Shown here in pieces: positions 1-17,128 of a DNA stretch of 64,000 nucleotides (the stretch's first letter is position 1; each line of letters starts with the position of its first letter). The position numbers and the translations under genes are program-made. Where the stretch lies: assembly GCA_000004985.1 (NCBI GenBank), contig GG738872.1. The stretch is one strand, 5' to 3'. The notes under the pieces were generated by a model. It searched no databases and was not told the origin of the DNA. It worked only from the letters and a program-made list of their open reading frames with translations. The DNA is from Naegleria gruberi (lineage: Eukaryota).

Positions 1-472
1 ACCCAAACCCAAACCCAAACCCAAACCCAAACCCAAACCCAAACCCAAACCCAAACCCAAACCCAAACCCAAACCCAAACCCAAACCCAAACCCAAACCC
101 AAACCCAAACCCAAACCCAAACCCAAACCCAAACCCAAACCCAAACCCAAACCCAAACCCAAACCCAAACCCAAACCCAAACCCAAACCCAAACCCAAAC
201 CCAAACCCAAACCCAAACCCAAACCCAAACCCAAACCCAAACCCAAACCCAAACCCAAACCCAAACCCAAACCCAAACCCAAACCCAAACCCAAACCCAA
301 ACCCAAACCCAAACCCAAACCCAAACCCAAACCCAAACCCAAACCCAAACCCAAACCCAAACCCAAAAACCCAAACCTAAAAACCCAAACCCAAACCCAA
401 ACCTAAAAACCCAAACCTAAAAACCCAAACCTAAAAACCCAAACCTAAAAACCCAAACCTAAAAACCTAAAA
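1..472. repeat. Terminal telomere array: (CCCAAA)n on the + strand, i.e. (TTTGGG)n G-strand running 5'->3' toward the chromosome end. About 61 perfect copies (1-367), then proximal variant units CCCAAA+CCTAAAAA (368-472).
   Basis: A perfect 6-bp periodicity starts at base 1. The C-rich strand reads inward, as expected for a left chromosome end. The array degenerates toward unique sequence at ~473. Confidence 0.95.
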
Positions 473-1168
473 AATATTTAAGTCCAGACCCAATGTTTCA
501 AAGTTCAAACCCTAGCCCAATTTATTGATTGTTATATCATTCGATTGTAAATGATGAGTAGAACAATGTATTATATTTAGTTTTTCAATTTATAAAATAT
601 TAACTTTGTAAATAATGTAAGATTAAAAATTTGTAAAATGAAACCATAGGAAGAATGATAATTTCAAAATCCTTTAGTGAGATTATATAGTAAATATCAT
701 CATTAACAACATTTATAATCACTTTCATATCAAATTTCAAAAGTTCAAGTCTGTAGATATAAAAGTATTGAGTGAAAAGGGAAGTAGTGAGGTACAATAG
801 GTCAACTATAACTTTTGAGTTTCTCATCAAAACATATTAAATCCTGACATGAAAATGTTCCATTTGATTAGTAAACATCGAATATCAAATTTATTTTAAC
901 TTTCATATTTAAAGATTTCTTCCCTCAATCACACATATGGTCAACTTGTATGAAAAGGTGGAAATCTTGAAAAAGGACCACCTATTGAAACTTTACCATC
1001 ATGATGTAGATGGTCTATAATGATGTACAATTCAATTTCATATCATAAGAATCAGAAATGGTACCATGGGAATGTAAATGTTGATTTTATAAAGTTGACT
1101 TTAAGGAAAGACAAGTCAGACCAACTCTATCAAATATATCACTTCAATCAATAAATTATATATGAAAA

Positions 1169-4100
1169 NNNNNNNNNNNNNNNNNNNNNNNNNNNNNNNN
1201 NNNNNNNNNNNNNNNNNNNNNNNNNNNNNNNNNNNNNNNNNNNNNNNNNNNNNNNNNNNNNNNNNNNNNNNNNNNNNNNNNNNNNNNNNNNNNNNNNNNN
1301 NNNNNNNNNNNNNNNNNNNNNNNNNNNNNNNNNNNNNNNNNNNNNNNNNNNNNNNNNNNNNNNNNNNNNNNNNNNNNNNNNNNNNNNNNNNNNNNNNNNN
1401 NNNNNNNNNNNNNNNNNNNNNNNNNNNNNNNNNNNNNNNNNNNNNNNNNNNNNNNNNNNNNNNNNNNNNNNNNNNNNNNNNNNNNNNNNNNNNNNNNNNN
1501 NNNNNNNNNNNNNNNNNNNNNNNNNNNNNNNNNNNNNNNNNNNNNNNNNNNNNNNNNNNNNNNNNNNNNNNNNNNNNNNNNNNNNNNNNNNNNNNNNNNN
1601 NNNNNNNNNNNNNNNNNNNNNNNNNNNNNNNNNNNNNNNNNNNNNNNNNNNNNNNNNNNNNNNNNNNNNNNNNNNNNNNNNNNNNNNNNNNNNNNNNNNN
1701 NNNNNNNNNNNNNNNNNNNNNNNNNNNNNNNNNNNNNNNNNNNNNNNNNNNNNNNNNNNNNNNNNNNNNNNNNNNNNNNNNNNNNNNNNNNNNNNNNNNN
1801 NNNNNNNNNNNNNNNNNNNNNNNNNNNNNNNNNNNNNNNNNNNNNNNNNNNNNNNNNNNNNNNNNNNNNNNNNNNNNNNNNNNNNNNNNNNNNNNNNNNN
1901 NNNNNNNNNNNNNNNNNNNNNNNNNNNNNNNNNNNNNNNNNNNNNNNNNNNNNNNNNNNNNNNNNNNNNNNNNNNNNNNNNNNNNNNNNNNNNNNNNNNN
2001 NNNNNNNNNNNNNNNNNNNNNNNNNNNNNNNNNNNNNNNNNNNNNNNNNNNNNNNNNNNNNNNNNNNNNNNNNNNNNNNNNNNNNNNNNNNNNNNNNNNN
2101 NNNNNNNNNNNNNNNNNNNNNNNNNNNNNNNNNNNNNNNNNNNNNNNNNNNNNNNNNNNNNNNNNNNNNNNNNNNNNNNNNNNNNNNNNNNNNNNNNNNN
2201 NNNNNNNNNNNNNNNNNNNNNNNNNNNNNNNNNNNNNNNNNNNNNNNNNNNNNNNNNNNNNNNNNNNNNNNNNNNNNNNNNNNNNNNNNNNNNNNNNNNN
2301 NNNNNNNNNNNNNNNNNNNNNNNNNNNNNNNNNNNNNNNNNNNNNNNNNNNNNNNNNNNNNNNNNNNNNNNNNNNNNNNNNNNNNNNNNNNNNNNNNNNN
2401 NNNNNNNNNNNNNNNNNNNNNNNNNNNNNNNNNNNNNNNNNNNNNNNNNNNNNNNNNNNNNNNNNNNNNNNNNNNNNNNNNNNNNNNNNNNNNNNNNNNN
2501 NNNNNNNNNNNNNNNNNNNNNNNNNNNNNNNNNNNNNNNNNNNNNNNNNNNNNNNNNNNNNNNNNNNNNNNNNNNNNNNNNNNNNNNNNNNNNNNNNNNN
2601 NNNNNNNNNNNNNNNNNNNNNNNNNNNNNNNNNNNNNNNNNNNNNNNNNNNNNNNNNNNNNNNNNNNNNNNNNNNNNNNNNNNNNNNNNNNNNNNNNNNN
2701 NNNNNNNNNNNNNNNNNNNNNNNNNNNNNNNNNNNNNNNNNNNNNNNNNNNNNNNNNNNNNNNNNNNNNNNNNNNNNNNNNNNNNNNNNNNNNNNNNNNN
2801 NNNNNNNNNNNNNNNNNNNNNNNNNNNNNNNNNNNNNNNNNNNNNNNNNNNNNNNNNNNNNNNNNNNNNNNNNNNNNNNNNNNNNNNNNNNNNNNNNNNN
2901 NNNNNNNNNNNNNNNNNNNNNNNNNNNNNNNNNNNNNNNNNNNNNNNNNNNNNNNNNNNNNNNNNNNNNNNNNNNNNNNNNNNNNNNNNNNNNNNNNNNN
3001 NNNNNNNNNNNNNNNNNNNNNNNNNNNNNNNNNNNNNNNNNNNNNNNNNNNNNNNNNNNNNNNNNNNNNNNNNNNNNNNNNNNNNNNNNNNNNNNNNNNN
3101 NNNNNNNNNNNNNNNNNNNNNNNNNNNNNNNNNNNNNNNNNNNNNNNNNNNNNNNNNNNNNNNNNNNNNNNNNNNNNNNNNNNNNNNNNNNNNNNNNNNN
3201 NNNNNNNNNNNNNNNNNNNNNNNNNNNNNNNNNNNNNNNNNNNNNNNNNNNNNNNNNNNNNNNNNNNNNNNNNNNNNNNNNNNNNNNNNNNNNNNNNNNN
3301 NNNNNNNNNNNNNNNNNNNNNNNNNNNNNNNNNNNNNNNNNNNNNNNNNNNNNNNNNNNNNNNNNNNNNNNNNNNNNNNNNNNNNNNNNNNNNNNNNNNN
3401 NNNNNNNNNNNNNNNNNNNNNNNNNNNNNNNNNNNNNNNNNNNNNNNNNNNNNNNNNNNNNNNNNNNNNNNNNNNNNNNNNNNNNNNNNNNNNNNNNNNN
3501 NNNNNNNNNNNNNNNNNNNNNNNNNNNNNNNNNNNNNNNNNNNNNNNNNNNNNNNNNNNNNNNNNNNNNNNNNNNNNNNNNNNNNNNNNNNNNNNNNNNN
3601 NNNNNNNNNNNNNNNNNNNNNNNNNNNNNNNNNNNNNNNNNNNNNNNNNNNNNNNNNNNNNNNNNNNNNNNNNNNNNNNNNNNNNNNNNNNNNNNNNNNN
3701 NNNNNNNNNNNNNNNNNNNNNNNNNNNNNNNNNNNNNNNNNNNNNNNNNNNNNNNNNNNNNNNNNNNNNNNNNNNNNNNNNNNNNNNNNNNNNNNNNNNN
3801 NNNNNNNNNNNNNNNNNNNNNNNNNNNNNNNNNNNNNNNNNNNNNNNNNNNNNNNNNNNNNNNNNNNNNNNNNNNNNNNNNNNNNNNNNNNNNNNNNNNN
3901 NNNNNNNNNNNNNNNNNNNNNNNNNNNNNNNNNNNNNNNNNNNNNNNNNNNNNNNNNNNNNNNNNNNNNNNNNNNNNNNNNNNNNNNNNNNNNNNNNNNN
4001 NNNNNNNNNNNNNNNNNNNNNNNNNNNNNNNNNNNNNNNNNNNNNNNNNNNNNNNNNNNNNNNNNNNNNNNNNNNNNNNNNNNNNNNNNNNNNNNNNNNN

Positions 4101-5508
4101 NNNNNNNNNNNNNNNNNNNNNNNNNNNNNNNNNNNNNNNNNNNNNNNNNNNNNNNNNNNNNNNNNNNNNNNNNNNNNNNNNNNNNNNNNNNNNNNNNNNN
4201 NNNNNNNNNNNNNNNNNNNNNNNNNNNNNNNNNNNNNNNNNNNNNNNNNNNNNNNNNNNNNNNNNNNNNNNNNNNNNNNNNNNNNNNNNNNNNNNNNNNN
4301 NNNNNNNNNNNNNNNNNNNNNNNNNNNNNNNNNNNNNNNNNNNNNNNNNNNNNNNNNNNNNNNNNNNNNNNNNNNNNNNNNNNNNNNNNNNNNNNNNNNN
4401 NNNNNNNNNNNNNNNNNNNNNNNNNNNNNNNNNNNNNNNNNNNNNNNNNNNNNNNNNNNNNNNNNNNNNNNNNNNNNNNNNNNNNNNNNNNNNNNNNNNN
4501 NNNNNNNNNNNNNNNNNNNNNNNNNNNNNNNNNNNNNNNNNNNNNNNNNNNNNNNNNNNNNNNNNNNNNNNNNNNNNNNNNNNNNNNNNNNNNNNNNNNN
4601 NNNNNNNNNNNNNNNNNNNNNNNNNNNNNNNNNNNNNNNNNNNNNNNNNNNNNNNNNNNNNNNNNNNNNNNNNNNNNNNNNNNNNNNNNNNNNNNNNNNN
4701 NNNNNNNNNNNNNNNNNNNNNNNNNNNNNNNNNNNNNNNNNNNNNNNNNNNNNNNNNNNNNNNNNNNNNNNNNNNNNNNNNNNNNNNNNNNNNNNNNNNN
4801 NNNNNNNNNNNNNNNNNNNNNNNNNNNNNNNNNNNNNNNNNNNNNNNNNNNNNNNNNNNNNNNNNNNNNNNNNNNNNNNNNNNNNNNNNNNNNNNNNNNN
4901 NNNNNNNNNNNNNNNNNNNNNNNNNNNNNNNNNNNNNNNNNNNNNNNNNNNNNNNNNNNNNNNNNNNNNNNNNNNNNNNNNNNNNNNNNNNNNNNNNNNN
5001 NNNNNNNNNNNNNNNNNNNNNNNNNNNNNNNNNNNNNNNNNNNNNNNNNNNNNNNNNNNNNNNNNNNNNNNNNNNNNNNNNNNNNNNNNNNNNNNNNNNN
5101 NNNNNNNNNNNNNNNNNNNNNNNNNNNNNNNNNNNNNNNNNNNNNNNNNNNNNNNNNNNNNNNNNNNNNNNNNNNNNNNNNNNNNNNNNNNNNNNNNNNN
5201 NNNNNNNNNNNNNNNNNNNNNNNNNNNNNNNNNNNNNNNNNNNNNNNNNNNNNNNNNNNNNNNNNNNNNNNNNNNNNNNNNNNNNNNNNNNNNNNNNNNN
5301 NNNNNNNNNNNNNNNNNNNNNNNNNNNNNNNNNNNNNNNNNNNNNNNNNNNNNNNNNNNNNNNNNNNNNNNNNNNNNNNNNNNNNNNNNNNNNNNNNNNN
5401 NNNNNNNNNNNNNNNNNNNNNNNNNNNNNNNNNNNNNNNNNNNNNNNNNNNNNNNNNNNNNNNNNNNNNNNNNNNNNNNNNNNNNNNNNNNNNNNNNNNN
5501 NNNNNNNN
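1169..5508. other. Assembly gap (4340 N)
   Basis: Uninterrupted run of n characters. Confidence 1.
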
Positions 5509-5872
5509 ACTTTCTAATTTCTCTCAAAGCAACAGTACCTGGCTTATATCTATGTGGCTTTTTAGGAGTACGTGTCTTGCTAATAGTTGATGGTTGTTTT
5601 ATAGCTTTTCTTGGTGCTTTGCCTCCAGTTGATTTTCTTGTTGTTTTTCTTCTTGCTAAAATAGCAGCTTCGGAAGTATTTTTACTTTTTCTAGTATTTC
5701 CTTCGGCTAAATCGGAAGTATTGGAAGAAGAAGGAACATCTGCAGATGAAAAATTTGCAACCACATCAGAAGCGACAGTAGATGAAGAGTTTGTGGTATC
5801 AGATACCATTGAATCATCAGTAGTTTCAGTAATAGAAGAATGAGAAGTAGTATTTCCAGTGATGAGAGTCAT
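5509..5872 (-). CDS. Histone H3-family variant, 5' part only (the CDS runs into the assembly gap). It has a ~95-aa Ser/Thr/Asp-rich N-terminal extension before the H3 tail.
   Basis: The minus-strand frame reads [13 protein letters not shown]...[51 protein letters not shown] and then hits the N run. This matches canonical H3 [12 protein letters not shown] and [17 protein letters not shown]. The first ATG is at 5872; the track start at 5923 is a GTG. Confidence 0.8.
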
Positions 5873-5998: not shown

Positions 5999-6478
5999 AT
6001 GCCAAAACGATCAGTTACTAAAATCATACCAATGTATGAAAGTATCTACGATTTACCAGTTGTCATGGTTTGTATGAAAGGAGAGAAAATCTCCGATGAA
6101 GCTTTTATTAATCATTTGTATTTTCATTCGAGTGTCTTTTATCCAACCGTTAATGATTGTACCAAAACCATCAACACAATCATGCACGAACTTGAAAATG
6201 TTATAGCAATTAATGATGATTTTATTATTGATGAAATTCCAAATCCTATGGATTTAAAAGAAAAGCTCCAACTCTCAAGAAAAGCAAATAGATTAGCTAT
6301 TTATTCATTAAAGACAATGATTATGATGGAATCAAAGATGTTTAATGCTTTGTTTCAAAAGAAACCATCTATGAATCAATTAAACAAGGCTCACAAATTC
6401 CAAAATGTAATTCATTTGGAAATTGATGAAGAAGATGTTTCCGAAAATGAAATGACCATTTGGAAAAATAAAGAATAA
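5999..6478 (+). CDS. Hypothetical protein, 159 aa, no recognisable domain
   Basis: ATG-initiated ORF, divergent from the H3-like gene across a 126-bp spacer. The composition looks protein-like. No motif was recognised. Confidence 0.45.
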   Translation: MPKRSVTKIIPMYESIYDLPVVMVCMKGEKISDEAFINHLYFHSSVFYPTVNDCTKTINTIMHELENVIAINDDFIIDEIPNPMDLKEKLQLSRKANRLAIYSLKTMIMMESKMFNALFQKKPSMNQLNKAHKFQNVIHLEIDEEDVSENEMTIWKNKE

Positions 6479-6537: not shown

Positions 6538-9303
6538 TTAATCATCAATATAGTCATCTAAAGGGTATATATAATCATTAAAGTAACGTAAAACCATACT
6601 TTCATCAACAAAGTTATCGAAAGGTTCCCATGTTGATTGTTTGTAACCATAACCTTGCCATTTTACAAGGTAATTGAAATATTTTGGTAATAAAAGATCA
6701 GAATCAATATCTATATCTTTTTCGATTAATTGATGGTCTAAAATCTCATCAACTACAAATATATCATCTGTTTGAGTATCTTGTAAATCTGAAGAATCAG
6801 CTGAAGAATCATCTGACATATCTGCCCATCTCCTTTTGGTACCTCCTTTCTTTTCCTTCTTGGATCTAAAAGAGGAACATTTCTTATATTCTTCTGGTGT
6901 CATTTTAAATTCAGAGAAGAACTTTTGCAAATCTTCAGGATTTAATGGGATGGTTACACCATCAAACCAATGATGATCTTTCAAATAACGATTCACATGT
7001 GAAACCAAATCTTCAAAAAACACATCCCTTTCTGAACTATTCCAATAACTATTTAGTAATATCTTGAATTTTGTAATAACCCGACTTTTTACCTTCCAAT
7101 AATTTTTGTTGAATTGTTTTTTATCTTCCTCTGTAACAATTTCAAGATCTGAAAATGCCATAAGAGATCTATAGATAGATCCCATGAAATTAGTAGTTTC
7201 TGTTAATGCAACCGTCTTTCCAAAAAGAAACTTCAGTTTCGGTATGTTGTCAATTAGCCAAGTCTTGCATTTGAAATCAACTCTTGTTTGTGGAAGTGAT
7301 TTTCTTTGAGAAATTATATTCTTGTTTGTTTGAGGAATATTCATAAATCCAACGCTCTCATCAATACATTCATCTCTCATAAATAGATATTTGAAAGGTA
7401 CGCAACCATTAGGATTGGATTTTCTAGATGTTATATATGAAGATGGTGACAATTCAACATTCAAAATATTATGAAAAGTAGTTTCCAATGTATCAGATGA
7501 TGAAAATCCATAATCTTGAATAGATCCTTGAACATATTGAAATATCATCTGCCGATGATGTACAGTATCTGCAAGGTACCTCTCTGGTAGTTGGTTGAAT
7601 ATTTTGAAAGCATATCTTTCATATGATTTAATTGAGCGCTTACTGACATGTCCTAGCATGAATGAAATTGCACTCTTTGTTTGCTCTTGCACAATATGGT
7701 TTCGAATAATATCAACCAACATGTTTTCTACCACAATACCAGATCTACCAGCACGTGCACAATACATGACATTTAAAATTCTCTTGGTGATATTTCTAAT
7801 ATATTCTGATATTCCATTTGAACAACATTGAGATTTAGATTGTTTTTTGAAAAATAAAAATTCTTTCACTACATCATTCTTAAATGTGAATTTACCATCT
7901 GAAATGAATTTTTCCCAATTAGAATTAAAGTTGGCAAATATCTCAGAACGAGTGTACCACAAATAATATAATAAAATGAATGATGAACAGAGAGTATGAT
8001 TCTGCTTTCCAAATATTGACACATTCCTTGATGAAGTGGTTGTACGCTTGTCTTTCTTCACTTCCATAGAAGTGTGAATAACGAACCATTTATCATCATT
8101 AAGATAATATTCAACTTTTTGAAATTTTACATCTTCAAGTCTTATCCAAATAAGAGAATCTCCTCTCATTCCAGTAGCTCGAATAACATGCATGATGGCA
8201 ACATCAGTAAGATCTTCAACTTTTGTCAAATCAGCAGCATAGGTAACTTTGTAGACCTCAGAAAACATCATTGGAGCAACTTTGTACACTTCACACCCAT
8301 ATAATCGAATCAAGCCCATTGTTGTTTGTTGAATAGCTTCCTTAAATAGAATGACTGGACTTTCACCGAATTTAGGATGTCTTTTTATGAATTTGTTCAA
8401 TCCATACACAAAGCACCCTTTCATTGTCTTATGCGAAAAACCACTAGCTCGACTGAATATCAAAAATCTAAGGTAGGTTATCTTTTCAATAGGGAATGGT
8501 TTCGGTTGAATCTTTGACCACGCTGTTTTGCCTTTGATTTGTTCTTTCCAAAACGACACATAGACAATTCCTGAATAAGCTTCAAATTGTCTAGTATTGA
8601 TATGCTTATGAAGCTTCATTACAGTGACAACCTTGGAAATATCTTCATCCAAATCATCAACAATTGTTAAATCTAAATTTGAATCAATTTCCTCATTGAA
8701 CTCTGGTCGAATAACAGCAGATTTCTTTTTTTTTGGAGTATAGCTTGCCACAAGGAGATCTTCAACATCATAATCAATTAAGCTAGCTTCCAAATTGTCA
8801 TTGATCTCTTCTAACATCTTTTCCTTCTCTTTCGGTGATGATGATTCTACATTACGAATAAGGGATTCTTTTCGAATTTCTTCATCAGTCATTTCGGGAG
8901 GGTTATCCATCTTGTTCATTCTTTCAATCTCTTGTAAAATATCTGACACAACATCCTTTTGATGCATATAAGGCTGTATCATTGTGTCTAAATCTTTAAT
9001 TGATTGAGCAACACCAATAAAATTGTTATTATGATTTAATAATGCCATTATGTGATGAAATGACTGCATAGTAAACTCAGCATCCAAACAATAAGTAACT
9101 CCGTTATAATCAACATTGATTGATTTGGAGCCAATATACTCCTTGTTGTTTAGCAAATCATTCATTTGATAAACTCGCGATGATGAGTTCTTTGATACTA
9201 AGGCGCTCTCATCCTGTTGAGTTGGTGGGAGTTCACCGGTTGGTGAATGGTTGTTGTTGGTGCAATCACTTAAATGAGAGCTTGTAGATGATGATGGAAG
9301 CAT
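6538..9303 (-). CDS. Tyrosine recombinase (Crypton-like catalytic core) fused to a C-terminal chromodomain, 921 aa
   Basis: Tyrosine-recombinase motifs read by eye: box I IRATGMRGDSLIWIRLEDV (Arg), then ARAGRSGIVV (Arg), then ISFMLGHVSKRSIKSYERY (His...Tyr nucleophile). The C-terminal 73 aa (about 6580-6759), FVVDEILDH...YFNYLVKWQGYGYKQSTWEPFDNF...VLRYF, fit the chromodomain consensus (Y.VKWkGy...tWEP). No RT or RNase H motifs are present in the sequenced part. Confidence 0.65.
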   Translation of the reverse strand: MLPSSSTSSHLSDCTNNNHSPTGELPPTQQDESALVSKNSSSRVYQMNDLLNNKEYIGSKSINVDYNGVTYCLDAEFTMQSFHHIMALLNHNNNFIGVAQSIKDLDTMIQPYMHQKDVVSDILQEIERMNKMDNPPEMTDEEIRKESLIRNVESSSPKEKEKMLEEINDNLEASLIDYDVEDLLVASYTPKKKKSAVIRPEFNEEIDSNLDLTIVDDLDEDISKVVTVMKLHKHINTRQFEAYSGIVYVSFWKEQIKGKTAWSKIQPKPFPIEKITYLRFLIFSRASGFSHKTMKGCFVYGLNKFIKRHPKFGESPVILFKEAIQQTTMGLIRLYGCEVYKVAPMMFSEVYKVTYAADLTKVEDLTDVAIMHVIRATGMRGDSLIWIRLEDVKFQKVEYYLNDDKWFVIHTSMEVKKDKRTTTSSRNVSIFGKQNHTLCSSFILLYYLWYTRSEIFANFNSNWEKFISDGKFTFKNDVVKEFLFFKKQSKSQCCSNGISEYIRNITKRILNVMYCARAGRSGIVVENMLVDIIRNHIVQEQTKSAISFMLGHVSKRSIKSYERYAFKIFNQLPERYLADTVHHRQMIFQYVQGSIQDYGFSSSDTLETTFHNILNVELSPSSYITSRKSNPNGCVPFKYLFMRDECIDESVGFMNIPQTNKNIISQRKSLPQTRVDFKCKTWLIDNIPKLKFLFGKTVALTETTNFMGSIYRSLMAFSDLEIVTEEDKKQFNKNYWKVKSRVITKFKILLNSYWNSSERDVFFEDLVSHVNRYLKDHHWFDGVTIPLNPEDLQKFFSEFKMTPEEYKKCSSFRSKKEKKGGTKRRWADMSDDSSADSSDLQDTQTDDIFVVDEILDHQLIEKDIDIDSDLLLPKYFNYLVKWQGYGYKQSTWEPFDNFVDESMVLRYFNDYIYPLDDYIDD

Positions 9304-9705
9304 TTTTTTGAGAGAAAATCCCCGAAATTTCCATTAAGGCAACTTTACAAAGTGAGCCCTCTTTGAGTATTCATAAATATAGGCAATTATCGTGCAAGAA
9401 GGCCTTTGTGGCCTTCCTGCATCAATATCTCATCCAAGTAATAATATTTATATATATAAAATTGGCAAACAGCATTCAATTTATTCAAATATTGATGTAG
9501 ACAGGTAAAAATGTCAATAATGTCATTTTTTTTACCTTACTGAAAAATGACCTGTTTTTGAAAAGCTCCCATTCAATGAGTTCAGTGAATTAGAACTGAA
9601 TTTCTGTACGATAATGTAGTAATTGAAGTCTATTACGATATCTGAAAAATTCAATATCCCAATATTTAAACAACAAATCTGGGTAATGTAATTAGCCTGC
9701 AGTCT

Positions 9706-9731
9706 CCCAAACCCAAACCCAAACCCAAACC
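9706..9731. repeat. Interstitial telomere-repeat tract, cccaaa x4.3, same orientation as the terminal array
   Basis: Exact string cccaaacccaaacccaaacccaaacc, followed directly by gene-relic sequence. Confidence 0.95.
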
Positions 9732-9732
9732 T

Positions 9733-10215
9733 ATTGCTCGCCTATTAGAAGAACACTATGGAACTAGTTTGAATATTAAATGCAATACCAAGTATTTAAT
9801 TTCATCAGAAACTGATTACATTTCAATTTACAGATTATATACAGATACTGATGTTGATTGGTAAGTAACCTAAACGAGTTAGATATAATAATTGTTCAAA
9901 ATAGGTTGTTTGTGTTAGCAGTTCCTCAATGGAATTACATTAGGTCAATTGTTATTGCTGTAATTTGTGCTATTGTTGGTGCCACATTCATTGTCACAAC
10001 AGGTGTAGCCATTTCCATCTTCATTTCAGTCAGATTAGTGAAACCATTTTACAATTTGATTGATTTATTCGAAAGTGTCTCTCATATGGATTTGGATAAT
10101 TTAGAAATTCATGATTCCAAATTTACAGAAGTGAAACAGTTACAAACTCATTTCAAAACCATGACAGACAGAATCAAACTTTACAGAGCTTTCATACCAT
10201 CACATTTACAAGTAA
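9733..10215 (+). pseudogene. Relic of a receptor-type cyclase-like gene. It covers the end of the extracellular domain, the TM helix and the HAMP-like linker only. It is truncated 5' exactly at the telomere tract and loses homology 3' before the cyclase-homology domain.
   Basis: Translation IARLLEEHYGTSLNIKCNTKYLISSETDYISIYRLYTDTDVDW / (44-nt gtaagt...atag, 9861-9904) / LFVLAVPQWNYIRSIVIAVICAIVGATFIV...VKPFYNLIDLFESVSHMDLDNLEI...IKLYRAFIPSHL is colinear with internal residues of the paralogues at 14482-17128 and 53385-55883. There is no start codon and no N-terminal ~430 codons. A stop follows soon after HL. Confidence 0.8.
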
Positions 10216-14481: not shown

Positions 14482-17128
14482 TTACATTTTGCTTTCACAT
14501 TGTCTTAGTAAATGAAGTGTAGGTCCATCATGTGGATTTTGTTGATAGAAAGTTTGAAGAATCGAATAAGCTTGTTTGTAATCTTGTTGTAGGAATAATC
14601 TGGATGCTTGTAGATAATCATGCCATTGAGATTGTTTGTTCTTTTCTTGGAGTTCGTACATCCACTTTGTTTTTGAATCAGTTTAATCAACACATTCGAA
14701 ATTTAACACAAAAAGTTATTGGAAAGGTCAAAAACAGAAAAGGACTTACCTCATCGTCGTTCACTTTCAAAGAAGATCCCAATTCATAGATATTTGTTAG
14801 CACGCCAGTATTTGGAGTCTTGTATTCGTCAGTTTTTCCATTGAGCGAGTTTAAATTAGTTTCGTCTAGTAATTCTTTGGAATCTACATATCTGATTTGG
14901 AACAATTGTTCACATTTTTCCTTAATCTTCTCACTTACTACAATACTAACATTCAGTTGAATTGCAATTTGAGTCAATTGATCCAAATTTTGTTTGGCGC
15001 TCGAAATTATTGTAAAGTTTTTCAATTCGTTCGTTCCAATATTTCCACAATAGGAAGATTGTGATAAAACTGCAATTTTAAATGACATTAAATCCAATAA
15101 TTGTGAATTCTTCTTGAAACTGTTTAATAAGGTTGAGGCAGCGACAACTCCTTTTTCTTCATGATTCGTCTGATTATTCGAAGAGTTAAACGAAATGGTG
15201 ATTGATTCATTTTCAAAGTTTCCAACGTTTCCTGTCAAACTTCTACTCACACTATTAATCTGTTCAAAAATATCTGACATTAGCTCAATAGTTTCGTTTG
15301 GATTCATATTTTGCAACCATTCAGTAAATCCATTAAAATGAATCTGGACGAAAGTTACCTTCTTCTGTTCCATATACAAGGAAAACTTGCTTCTATCATT
15401 CTTATATACTTTCCTTGAGGATCTTGCTTTATGAGAAATTCCTTTACTGGAATTAGAACTTCCCACTGATTGAGTTTCCTGACTTGACATGTTGTGCGAA
15501 GATCCTCCGTAGACTTTAGTTCTGGAATTCTTTCGGAAAGATTCGTCTACTTCACTGTCTGATTCTTGGATACCATCTACATTTTCAATTTCTGAAAGTA
15601 AGTGAGCTGGAATAAAACTCTTGTAAAGTTTGATTCGGTTGACCATGGAAATGAAATGTCCTTGTAATTGTTTCACTTCTGAGAATGAACTTGGAATAAT
15701 GTGAAGTTGATCCAAATCCATATTAGCAACACTTTCGAATAACTCTATCAAATTATAAAACGGCTTGACAACTTTTAAGGAAACAACAACTCCCAAGACT
15801 AAACCAACCGAAATGATGAGAACACTACCAATCAATGAGCAGATAATTGCAAAAATTGTCGATCCTAAATAATTCCATTGAGGGACACTCAACACTAATA
15901 TCCAATCAATTTTTGAGCTAGTACACAATCTATATATGGAAATGTATTGTCCACTACGTTCGAGAACTTGCATTTCATTGCAAGTTATTTTAGTCCAATC
16001 ATTCGAATAATGATCAAGAATAGCTTGAGAAATTGCGTTGATTTTGGTATCTGAAACATCGGTTGGTGTTTTTCTATCTAATGATCCATCTGATTTCCAA
16101 TCTGAAATTGTAACTTCCTCTCTGTCAACTATTTCCCATAAACTTTACAATAAAAATTTATGTAACTTACCTGCAATCAAATAAGCAGTTTCAGTTTCCA
16201 CAATAAATCCTAAAGATCCAGTAATGGATGCAATTCTTTCTTTCAAAAAGTCTGAAATCGATGACACTGTCAAATCATTTGCTTGATAATAGTGAAAATT
16301 GTGTCCGTTAGGAAGAGGAAGTTTCTTATTTACGACACAATTCATGGAAGTGATGAATGTGTATTGAGGCATTGAAATGTCAGCATAACTCAATGTAAAA
16401 ACTTGTTGACCTGGATTAGCATCACAGACCTCAACGAGATAGCTCACATCGAATGGCTTGTTGGTTTCGTCTGGATTAGAATTTCTAACACACTGTTCGT
16501 GATTGGTAATGTTGTCGCAATAATAGATTAATTGAGCTGTTGATGTGATATTAAAAGTGGCCAAATAATCTCCCCACTCAATTGATCCAAAGCATGTTTT
16601 ATCTGTACCTCCCACATATGAGGAAATTGTAATTCCCTTCAAATGTTTTTGAGATGACTAATGGCAATTTGAAGGTATTTCATTAATTTTCATGAATTTT
16701 TCATATTTTGAATATGAGAATAGGAATCAATAAACTTTGCTTACCTTGTAGCCTGCAAACATAATCCTCTCCAAATAATCGAAATTTCCATACGAATAAT
16801 CATCAGTTGCCAATTGTTGTTTAATGGCCTCATTCAATACATTAACTTCTTTGAGTGTTTGCTCTGCATATTTGACAATGGTTGAAAACTCTTCGTCTCT
16901 CACTGTTGATGATAAACTGACAACTGTTGGAGAAAAACTTGCCAACCAAATGGCAGATAGGATCAAAACACTGAGGAAGAGTAAACCAGATACCATGACA
17001 ATCATACAAAATTTGATGGAAGTTCCCTTAGTTGAGCCTCCTGTGTAGGAACTTGTTTCTTGATTCTTATCCATTATGGCTTGTTTATCCTCTTGTGAGG
17101 TTGGTGTTACCTTGTTCTTTAATTTCAT
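14482..17128 (-). CDS. Receptor-type class III cyclase-homology protein (TM, extracellular domain, TM, HAMP-like, degenerate CHD, TPR-like tail), 810 aa, 4 exons
   Basis: Exons are 17128..16745, 16657..16171, 16128..14750 and 14664..14482, with introns of 87, 42 and 85 nt (gtaagc/gtaagt donors, AG acceptors). Splicing restores colinearity with the intronless paralogue at 53385-55883 (YK|SSQKHLKGITISSYVGG vs YKSEQKFHKGLTYSTYIGD; VNDDE|WMYELQEK vs NIDEWMYELQEK). The total of 2433 nt is in frame. Confidence 0.85.

What the first reader, a model, noticed from the sequence alone, without database searches (positions are those of the whole stretch)
6538..9303. Tyrosine recombinase fused to a chromodomain as the outermost large gene of the chromosome
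The 921-aa ORF carries the Arg...Arg...His...Tyr pattern of tyrosine recombinases (ATGMRGDSL; AGRSG; LGHVSKRSIKSYERY). It ends in a canonical chromodomain (YLVKWQGYGYKQSTWEP). Tyrosine-recombinase-only elements (Cryptons) are known, and chromodomains are known on Ty3/gypsy integrases, where they target heterochromatin. I do not know of this combination of a tyrosine recombinase with a chromodomain, sitting between telomere-repeat tracts. It could be a heterochromatin- or telomere-targeting transposase, or a domesticated subtelomeric recombinase.
Basis: partly seen in the sequence, partly recalled or inferred. Interest (0 to 1): 0.8.

Follow-up and report, generated by a model that had tools for sequence, protein, structure and literature searches.

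The report
Telomere-resident tyrosine recombinase with chromodomain
The gene encodes a real tyrosine recombinase fused to a chromodomain, and it belongs to an undescribed family in Naegleria and Willaertia amoebae whose members nearly all lie in the last few kilobases of chromosomes, which suggests a recombinase-carrying element that lives in telomeres.

Summary

The main new result is the location. Named homologues occur only in N. lovaniensis, N. fowleri and Willaertia magna. In 10 of 11 loci the gene points at a terminal (TTTGGG)n array 0.1-8 kb away. In four loci (N. gruberi, two N. fowleri ends, W. magna L012), with a decayed trace in N. lovaniensis, a 14-24-nt interstitial telomere tract bounds the terminal block on the inner side. 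In N. fowleri that tract is exactly where two otherwise unrelated chromosome ends begin to match.

Best reading: a Crypton-like, recombinase-only element, or its long-resident descendant, that recombines within telomere hexamers. The chromodomain would add heterochromatin tethering.

Against an active transposon: copy number is low, paralogues are old and under purifying selection, and N. fowleri duplicated an already truncated copy.

The recombinase-chromodomain pairing is not unprecedented; the fungal Starship captain Kirc has it.

The parts
1..470 (.). Terminal telomere array: (CCCAAA)n on the + strand. The inner part (361-470) consists of variant CCCAAACCTAAAAA units.
   Evidence: 61 matches here, 0 expected in shuffles.
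471..1168 (.). Unique telomere-adjacent sequence of the terminal block, with no ORF of note.
   Evidence: no similarity to the rest of the window.
1169..5508 (.). Run of 4,340 N (assembly gap or mask) inside the terminal block. Its content is unknown.
5510..5872 (-). 5' part of a histone H3 variant gene. It has an ~75-aa S/T-rich N-terminal extension followed by [17 protein letters not shown]...[11 protein letters not shown], and it runs into the gap.
   Evidence: (Pfam Histone 19.9 bits on the fragment).
5999..6478 (+). 159-aa ORF of unknown function, transcribed divergently from the H3 variant. No Pfam hit.
6538..9303 (-). 921-aa tyrosine recombinase-chromodomain gene, transcribed towards the telomere.
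7585..8649 (-). Recombinase core, aa 219-573: an N-terminal helical core-binding-like domain plus the catalytic domain. Codon positions: R380 8164-8166; K417 8053-8055; K419 8047-8049; R517 7753-7755; R520 7744-7746; H552 7648-7650; Y561 7621-7623.
6598..6759 (-). Chromodomain, aa 849-902, with aromatic-cage positions F849, W882 and Y885.
   Evidence: P0002 keeps Y/W/Y at the same places.
9706..9729 (.). Interstitial telomere tract (CCCAAA)4 in the same orientation as the terminal array. It is the proximal boundary of the 9.2-kb terminal block.
   Evidence: Equivalent tracts are seen in N. fowleri L008/L009 and W. magna L012.
9742..10208 (+). Relic of a cyclase-like membrane protein gene, lacking its 5' and 3' parts. 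It is a paralogue of 15599-16021(-). The similarity begins 13 nt from the interstitial telomere tract.

Best explanation
SHOWN. The gene encodes a two-domain tyrosine recombinase (core-binding-like plus catalytic domain) with all catalytic positions filled, except that Arg replaces the usual His-II (R517-x-x-R520). It has a C-terminal chromodomain with an intact aromatic cage. It belongs to a family whose named members come only from Naegleria and Willaertia. Genes of this family lie in the terminal 0.1-8 kb of chromosomes and almost always point at the telomere. In four loci (window, N. fowleri L008 and L009, W. magna L012), with a decayed trace in N. lovaniensis, the terminal block holding the gene is bounded on the inside by a short telomere-repeat tract in the same orientation as the terminal array.

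INFERRED. The block is, or descends from, a Crypton-like recombinase-only DNA element whose crossover site is the telomere hexamer. Recombination between the inner tract and the terminal array would release a circle carrying one telomere tract. Recombination of that circle with the repeats of another chromosome end would insert it, leaving exactly the tract-block-telomere arrangement seen here. In the N. gruberi/P0002 lineage the chromodomain would hold the enzyme on methyl-lysine-marked subtelomeric chromatin, as chromodomains do for Ty3/gypsy integrases. The family looks like a long-term resident of chromosome ends rather than a fast-spreading transposon.
For: Fold and active site. Sub-threshold but consistent Pfam hits across members to NDC10_II (Crypton-derived), Phage_integrase and Phage_int_SAM_4.

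Chromodomain.

Location, as distance from the gene's 3' end to the terminal array:
- window, 6.1 kb
- N. lovaniensis L002, 5.6 kb
- N. fowleri L008 and L009, 0.09 kb
- W. magna L004, 1.35 kb
- W. magna L005, 2.8 kb
- W. magna L006, 6.5 kb, and L007, 0.5 kb
- W. magna L011, 7.9 kb, and L012, 0.25 kb
The eleventh locus, L003, starts 118 bp from a contig end and has a CCAAACCCAAACCCACCCAA tract on its inner side. In all, 10 of 11 genes point at the telomere.

Boundaries: window (CCCAAA)4 at 9706-9729 abuts a gene relic. In N. fowleri, L008 and L009 become 93-99.7% identical exactly at GGGTTTGGGTTTGGG|AATATCGCC, and their inner flanks are unrelated. N. lovaniensis has a decayed copy of that junction. 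L012 has GGGTTTGGGTTTGG 2.2 kb upstream of the gene.

The gap-free blocks contain no RT.

Cryptons are defined by 4-6-bp terminal direct repeats taken to be the crossover site, and by a proposed circular intermediate (PMC3212892). A telomere-hexamer-specific recombinase element, TATE, exists in the related Discoba lineage Leishmania (PMC6681497).
Against: Copy number is low. N. gruberi has one annotated copy, with no paralogue in two database searches. N. lovaniensis has one.

The W. magna paralogues share only 20-46% identity, so they are old. Only one near-identical pair was seen: P0019 and P0030 share a long identical stretch, but the genomic context of P0030 could not be retrieved.

The N. 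fowleri/N. lovaniensis orthologues have dN/dS of about 0.09 with saturated dS, and their junction is conserved. That indicates long vertical residence.

The only clearly recent duplication, in N. fowleri, copied a gene already truncated before its RSxRSG, His and Tyr motifs. The encoded enzyme therefore cannot have catalysed that event in cis.

Five W. magna loci show no inner telomere tract within the 10 kb fetched.

No circle, empty site or activity has been observed. Tandem hexamers lack the dyad-symmetric arms typical of recombinase sites.
Confidence: 0.45

Rival explanations
1. A host or domesticated subtelomeric recombinase gene family. The genes are ordinary residents of subtelomeres. 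The terminal blocks move between ends by break-induced replication or ectopic recombination that starts in telomere tracts, as with yeast Y' elements and human subtelomeric duplicons. The enzyme serves the cell in some way, such as subtelomere exchange or resolving joined ends, or has an unrelated role.
For: Strong purifying selection and conserved position between N. fowleri and N. lovaniensis. Old, divergent paralogues, each at a different W. magna end. Neighbouring non-recombinase genes are also shared between W. magna ends, as in ordinary subtelomeric families. The truncated N. fowleri copy was duplicated without a working enzyme of its own. The gene relic beside the window's inner tract fits breakage followed by telomere healing.
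Against: N. fowleri has apparently lost the intact gene: both ends and a second strain carry the truncated copy. The gene is therefore dispensable. This model does not explain why a recombinase, with its catalytic residues kept in nearly all paralogues, is the one constant of these blocks, nor why 10 of 11 genes point at the telomere. No host function is known.
Confidence: 0.35
2. Passive accumulation. An ordinary Crypton-like transposon family without telomere specificity, whose surviving copies are seen at chromosome ends only because insertions there are tolerated.
For: Other mobile elements are also present in these subtelomeres: a pogo-like DDE_1 gene in L002 and an RT/RNase H insertion in L008.
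Against: All 11 loci with context lie within 8 kb of a contig end. Ten have a terminal telomere array on the 3' side, and the block boundary sits precisely at a telomere tract. No internal copy was found. Passive retention would leave degraded, unselected copies, not dN/dS of about 0.09.
Confidence: 0.1
3. A DIRS/TATE-like retrotransposon. The recombinase would be one gene of a retroelement whose RT/RNase H lies in the 4.3-kb gap.
For: TATE of Leishmania is a recombinase-encoding retroelement inserted in telomere hexamers. N. gruberi has a few DIRS-like fragments (PMC3266345). The gap is large enough.
Against: No RT/RNase H accompanies the gene in any of the gap-free relatives, apart from an independent insertion in L008 on the opposite strand that L009 lacks. 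The gene has its own ATG and stop and is not part of a polyprotein. The H3 variant gene, not a pol gene, runs into the gap.
Confidence: 0.05

Closest known systems
Crypton DNA transposons (Goodwin 2003; Kojima & Jurka 2011, PMC3212892)
TATE, the telomere-associated transposable element of Leishmania braziliensis (PMC6681497)
   Same: A recombinase-encoding element inserted at a fixed position within telomere hexamer repeats. The host is also a member of Discoba.
   Different: TATE is a DIRS-type retroelement with RT and RNase H and occurs in tandem clusters. The family here shows no RT in its gap-free blocks and occurs as single blocks.
Kirc, captain recombinase of the Starship Enterprise (Podospora; PMC8092012)
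   Same: Domain order: tyrosine recombinase with a core-binding domain, followed by a C-terminal chromodomain.
   Different: Kirc is a DUF3435-type recombinase with a central Zn finger. It mobilises a giant cargo element at internal sites in Pezizomycotina. No DUF3435 hit was found here. The fusion therefore appears to be independent.
Chromodomain integrases of chromoviruses (Ty3/gypsy; e.g. MAGGY, cited in 10.1101/2021.11.30.470311)
   Same: A C-terminal chromodomain on the DNA-joining enzyme of a mobile element, which directs it to H3K9me chromatin.
   Different: The enzyme there is a DDE integrase of a retrotransposon, not a tyrosine recombinase.
Yeast Y' subtelomeric elements (my own knowledge, not checked here)
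   Same: Terminal blocks separated from the rest of the chromosome by short internal telomere-repeat tracts. They spread between ends by recombination, circular forms are known, and they carry a large ORF.
   Different: Y' encodes a helicase, not a recombinase, and its spread depends on the host's homologous recombination.

Membership tests
Tyrosine recombinase superfamily | Catalytic-domain fold shared with Cre, Xer and lambda Int | tested here: met
Tyrosine recombinase superfamily | Catalytic residues R-K-H-R-H/W-Y in order | tested here: met
   R380, K417/K419 (in the loop after strand 2 of the model), R520, H552 and Y561 are invariant or nearly so in 12 sequences. R380 aligns with Cre R173. 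The one deviation is the His-II position, which is Arg (R517) in every member. Residue-level superposition on Cre was not available.
Tyrosine recombinase superfamily | Pfam Phage_integrase above the gathering score | tested here: not met
   17.1-18.6 bits against 27.1. The family is too divergent for the curated HMM.
Chromodomain | Pfam Chromo above the gathering score, and an aromatic cage | tested here: met
   39.7 bits against 25.1. CBX/HP1 hits in the PDB. F849/W882/Y885 in this protein and Y/W/Y in P0002. Methyl-lysine binding was not tested.
Crypton | Tyrosine recombinase as the sole enzyme, with no RT/RNase H | tested here: inconclusive
   Met in the gap-free blocks of relatives. The window's own block has a 4.3-kb unreadable gap.
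Crypton | [quoted passage not shown] | tested here: met
   No TIR or LTR. Telomere-hexamer tracts lie in direct orientation at both ends of the block.
Crypton | Multiple dispersed copies, or insertion polymorphism showing transposition | tested here: not met
   Single copy in the window and in N. gruberi proteins. The only near-identical pair with genomic context is the truncated N. fowleri duplicate. P0019/P0030 in W. magna also share an identical stretch but P0030's context was not retrievable.
Crypton | Recombinase groups phylogenetically with Crypton clades | not tested
DIRS / TATE retroelements | RT and RNase H encoded with the recombinase, plus inverted or split direct terminal repeats | tested here: not met
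   Absent from the relatives' blocks. The L008 RT/RNase H is a separate insertion. No such repeats were found. The window's gap is unreadable.
Starship captains (DUF3435) | DUF3435-type recombinase at the 5' edge of a large cargo element in Pezizomycotina | tested here: not met
   No DUF3435 hit in any member. The host is a heterolobosean. Blocks are 2.7-9 kb.

The most novel reading that the evidence does not exclude
The family is not merely parked at chromosome ends but forms part of how vahlkampfiid amoebae build and exchange them. It would be a telomere-repeat-specific site-specific recombination system that appends, swaps or circularises terminal cassettes. In at least two lineages those cassettes carry an H3-variant histone gene. 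In N. gruberi the chromodomain would couple the system to histone methylation. This would be a recombinase-based counterpart to the retrotransposon-based telomere systems of Drosophila.
Probability: 0.15. Interest if true: 0.85.

Novelty: new variant of a known kind. Interest (0 to 1): 0.66.

Why it matters
Recombinase-only elements in eukaryotes are rare and poorly understood. Telomere-specific elements known so far are almost all retroelements.

This family offers three things. It is a tractable case of target-site choice by a eukaryotic tyrosine recombinase, with a simple hexamer repeat as the presumed site. It is a second, independent example of a chromodomain recruited to such an enzyme. 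It may also explain how terminal chromosome blocks bounded by internal telomere tracts arise and move.

The family is invisible to standard domain annotation, because every member is labelled 'hypothetical'. Similar systems may therefore be overlooked in other protists.

Tried and rejected
- Pfam and NCBIfam on the single protein gave only sub-threshold recombinase hits.
- A family-profile search of PDB sequences found nothing relevant.
I used it only for the R380/R173 correspondence.
- The word-indexed protein search with the family alignment returned only one fragment. I left the third allowed search unused, because neither the short chromodomain nor the histone fragment would have given interpretable hits.
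Two metagenome scans found nothing. The AFDB fold library was unavailable.
- The model of the C-terminal half (aa 574-921, two sequences) had pLDDT 33.9 and was discarded. The 275 residues between the recombinase and the chromodomain therefore remain uncharacterised.
- Searches for terminal inverted or direct repeats other than telomere tracts found only chance-level matches.
- The 159-aa ORF next to the gene is not similar to the small ORF at the equivalent place in W. magna L003, so a conserved three-gene cassette is rejected.
- No chromodomain continues after the stop codon of the N. lovaniensis gene.
- An exact look-up of the window's own protein, to find a gap-free contig, returned nothing.
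Full report
1. WHAT IS IN THE WINDOW

The window is the left end of a Naegleria gruberi scaffold. The 921-aa product of 6538-9303(-) is 100% identical to an annotated 'predicted protein [Naegleria gruberi]' on a 413-kb contig.

From the end inwards, the window holds:
- (CCCAAA)n at 1-~470, with variant inner units
- about 700 nt of unique sequence
- a run of 4,340 N at 1169-5508
- the 5' part of an H3-variant gene at 5510-5872(-), which runs into the N run
- a 159-aa ORF with no family at 5999-6478(+)
- the 921-aa gene
- 400 nt of spacer
- an interstitial (CCCAAA)4 tract at 9706-9729, in the same orientation as the terminal array (none expected by chance)
- 13 nt further in, the relic of a cyclase-like gene at 9742-10208, which lacks both ends and has a full paralogue at about 14.7-16.1 kb

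Beyond about 10.8 kb the genes are ordinary host genes: a CitMHS transporter, NUP210, a histidine kinase, protein kinases and a RhoGEF.

2. THE PROTEIN

Chromodomain. The C-terminus (aa 849-902) is a chromodomain above Pfam's threshold (39.7 against 25.1 bits). Its PDB neighbours are CBX, HP1 and CHD1 proteins. The three aromatic-cage positions are filled by F849, W882 and Y885.

Recombinase. Curated HMMs do not detect it (Phage_integrase 17 bits, XerA 14 bits).
- An exhaustive HMMER search of 1.84 billion representative proteins, using the alignment of the protein with its one close relative P0002, found 32 proteins. All matched aa ~210-580.
- In a 12-sequence alignment, R375, R380 (G-x-R-G-D-S), K417 and K419 (K-K/E-D/E-K), R517, G522, Y561 and R563 are invariant. 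R520 is nearly invariant. Position 552 is H or W.
- This is the R...K...(H)xxR...H/W...Y order of tyrosine recombinases. The His-II place is taken by Arg in every member.
- An AlphaFold2 model of aa 219-573 built on this alignment has mean pLDDT 87.9.
- Against viral models, only phage integrases appear.
- A profile alignment to Cre pairs the N-terminal helices with Cre's core-binding domain, and R380 with Cre R173.
- Individual members give weak Pfam hits to NDC10_II (E=2.6e-5), Phage_integrase and Phage_int_SAM_4.

The fold, the domain order and the active site therefore all agree.

Uncharacterised parts. The 218 N-terminal residues and aa 574-848 have no detectable family. A model of the C-terminal half failed (pLDDT 33.9).

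The close relative P0002. It is 32% identical and comes from a metagenome contig. It also ends in a chromodomain-like segment with Y/W/Y at the cage positions, although Pfam does not score it. The fusion is therefore old and has been maintained. No other family member has a chromodomain.

3. WHO HAS THE FAMILY, AND WHERE

Distribution. Named members come only from Naegleria lovaniensis, N. fowleri and Willaertia magna (at least eight in W. magna). The rest are short environmental contigs.

Location. I fetched every member that lies on a long contig. The result is uniform. Distances are from the gene's 3' end to the terminal (TTTGGG)n array, except for L003.

| Species | Locus | Distance |
|---|---|---|
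| N. gruberi | window | 6.1 kb |
| N. lovaniensis | L002 | 5.6 kb |
| N. fowleri | L008, L009 | 0.09 kb |
| W. magna | L004 | 1.35 kb |
| W. magna | L005 | 2.8 kb |
| W. magna | L006 | 6.5 kb |
| W. magna | L007 | 0.5 kb |
| W. magna | L011 | 7.9 kb |
| W. magna | L012 | 0.25 kb |
| W. magna | L003 | gene starts 118 bp from a contig end; no array visible |

- In ten of the eleven loci the gene points at the telomere.
- If genes were placed at random in genomes of tens of megabases, fewer than a few per cent would lie within 8 kb of an end. This rests on my assumption about genome size and the number of ends. On that assumption the pattern cannot be chance.

4. THE TERMINAL BLOCKS HAVE A TELOMERE TRACT AS THEIR INNER EDGE

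- In N. fowleri the two ends are 99.7% identical from the gene to the telomere. Upstream they are 93% identical, apart from a 1.9-kb RT/RNase H insertion in L008.
- The similarity begins exactly at (T)GGGTTTGGGTTTGGG|AATATCGCCCATT. The sequences on the inner side are unrelated.
- N. lovaniensis has a decayed version of the same junction at the corresponding place, again next to unrelated genes.
- W. magna L012 has GGGTTTGGGTTTGG 2.2 kb upstream of the gene.
- L003 has a tract on the inner side of its block.
- The window has (CCCAAA)4 next to a broken gene.
- Five W. magna loci show no such tract within the 10 kb fetched.

The design 'old healed end - short telomere tract - block with recombinase - telomere' therefore recurs in both genera.

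5. HOW IT PROBABLY WORKS

Cryptons are recombinase-only elements without terminal repeats. They are flanked by 4-6-bp direct repeats thought to be the crossover site, and they are proposed to move through a circle (PMC3212892).

A Crypton-like element whose crossover sequence is the telomere hexamer would be flanked by telomere repeats in direct orientation and would be found only at chromosome ends. That is what is seen.

A precedent for hexamer-specific insertion by a recombinase element exists in Leishmania (TATE), although TATE is a retroelement (PMC6681497).

Chromodomains on retrotransposon integrases direct them to H3K9me chromatin (cited in 10.1101/2021.11.30.470311). By analogy, the chromodomain here would keep the enzyme on subtelomeric heterochromatin.

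These steps are inference. No activity, circle or new insertion has been observed.

6. WHAT SPEAKS AGAINST AN ACTIVE TRANSPOSON

- N. gruberi and N. lovaniensis each show one copy.
- The W. magna paralogues share 20-46% identity. Only P0019 and P0030 share a long identical stretch, and P0030's context could not be retrieved.
- The N. fowleri and N. lovaniensis orthologues have dN of about 0.22 with saturated dS, so dN/dS is about 0.09 at most. Their block junction is conserved. This implies long vertical residence under selection.
- The N. fowleri copies have a premature stop and are cut by the telomere before the RSxRSG, His and Tyr motifs. Even so, this truncated block sits at two ends and occurs in a second strain. 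That duplication was made by something other than its own enzyme, most simply break-induced replication or ectopic exchange starting in telomere tracts.
- W. magna ends also share other gene families, as ordinary subtelomeres do.

I therefore rate the self-mobilising (or formerly self-mobilising) telomere element at 0.45 and a resident or domesticated subtelomeric recombinase at 0.35. Passive accumulation and a DIRS-like retroelement are minor options.

7. COMPARISON WITH WHAT IS KNOWN, AND NOVELTY

The pairing of a recombinase with a chromodomain is already described for Kirc of the fungal Starship Enterprise (PMC8092012).

No DUF3435, GCR1_C, DUF3504 or RT accompanies the family. Its named members are restricted to vahlkampfiid amoebae. 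All members are annotated as hypothetical. In the papers searched I found no description of it or of a telomere-bound recombinase-only element.

I file it as a new variant of a known kind: a divergent eukaryotic tyrosine-recombinase family with a Crypton-like gene content, an obligate terminal location, and a lineage-specific chromodomain.

8. VERDICT

- Observation: confirmed.
- Main value: the family-wide telomere association, which was not in the original finding.
- Interest: 0.66.

Noticed in passing
window 5510-5872 (-); L003 2607-3086 (-): A histone H3 variant gene lies inside the terminal block next to the recombinase in N. gruberi. It has a long S/T-rich N-terminal extension, then [17 protein letters not shown], and the rest is hidden in the gap. 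In W. magna L003 a 159-aa divergent H3 with a long loop 1 lies in the same position. That is two of eleven loci, which seems too many for a small gene family, and a chromodomain reader sits beside an H3 gene. No explanation.
   Followed up: partly
window 9742-10208 (+), paralogue at 15599-16021 (-): Relic of a cyclase-like membrane protein gene whose similarity to its paralogue begins 13 nt from the interstitial telomere tract. This looks like an old chromosome break healed by telomere addition.
   Followed up: yes
L008 9998-11649 and L009 9998-11649 (N. fowleri); L010: The N. fowleri copies carry a premature stop (TAA where N. lovaniensis has Glu), and the telomere array starts about 85 nt later, before the catalytic His/Tyr region. 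The same truncated block is present at two chromosome ends and in a second sequencing run.
   Followed up: yes
L008 7700-9597: A 1.9-kb insertion carrying an RVT_1/RNase_H ORF on the opposite strand interrupts the N. fowleri block in L008 and is absent from L009. It is a separate retroelement living in the same subtelomere.
   Followed up: partly
C-termini of P0007, P0008, P0010, P0016 and the L012 11116-12360 product: Many family members end in an acidic run with a [VI][VI]x[VI] core (VIVIDTDDE, ILVISPDDD, EIILSGNDSE, VEITLED, VQIILTDDELD), which resembles SUMO-interaction motifs. In P0001 and P0002 that position is the first strand of the chromodomain.
   Followed up: no
L001 5989-7083 (-): The metagenomic relative P0002 has a Tet/JBP-type 2OG-Fe(II) dioxygenase gene as its downstream neighbour.
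   Followed up: no
L002 12023-13285 (-): A pogo-like DDE_1/HTH_Tnp_Tc5 transposase gene lies between the N. lovaniensis recombinase gene and the telomere. The recombinase's N-terminal part (9584-9952) is in a separate ORF, through an intron or a frameshift.
   Followed up: no
L004 13060-13825 and L005 14560-15316; L005/L006 and L003/L007 neighbours: W. magna chromosome ends share a ~770-bp telomere-adjacent repeat and several non-recombinase gene families (67-88% identity), in different order relative to the recombinase gene. In L005 about 550 bp of unrelated sequence follows a short telomere tract at the contig end, which may be a misassembly.
   Followed up: partly
window 361-470; L002 17590-17700: The innermost telomere repeats are variant units: CCCAAACCTAAAAA in N. 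gruberi and (TTATTGGG)n in N. lovaniensis. The interstitial tracts in several loci have a similar short length (14-16 nt) and an AAT(A) 5' context.
   Followed up: no
L012 10001-12360: The W. magna copy P0017 is split over three reading frames (163 + 171 + 414 aa). This is either a decaying copy or indel errors in the assembly.
   Followed up: no
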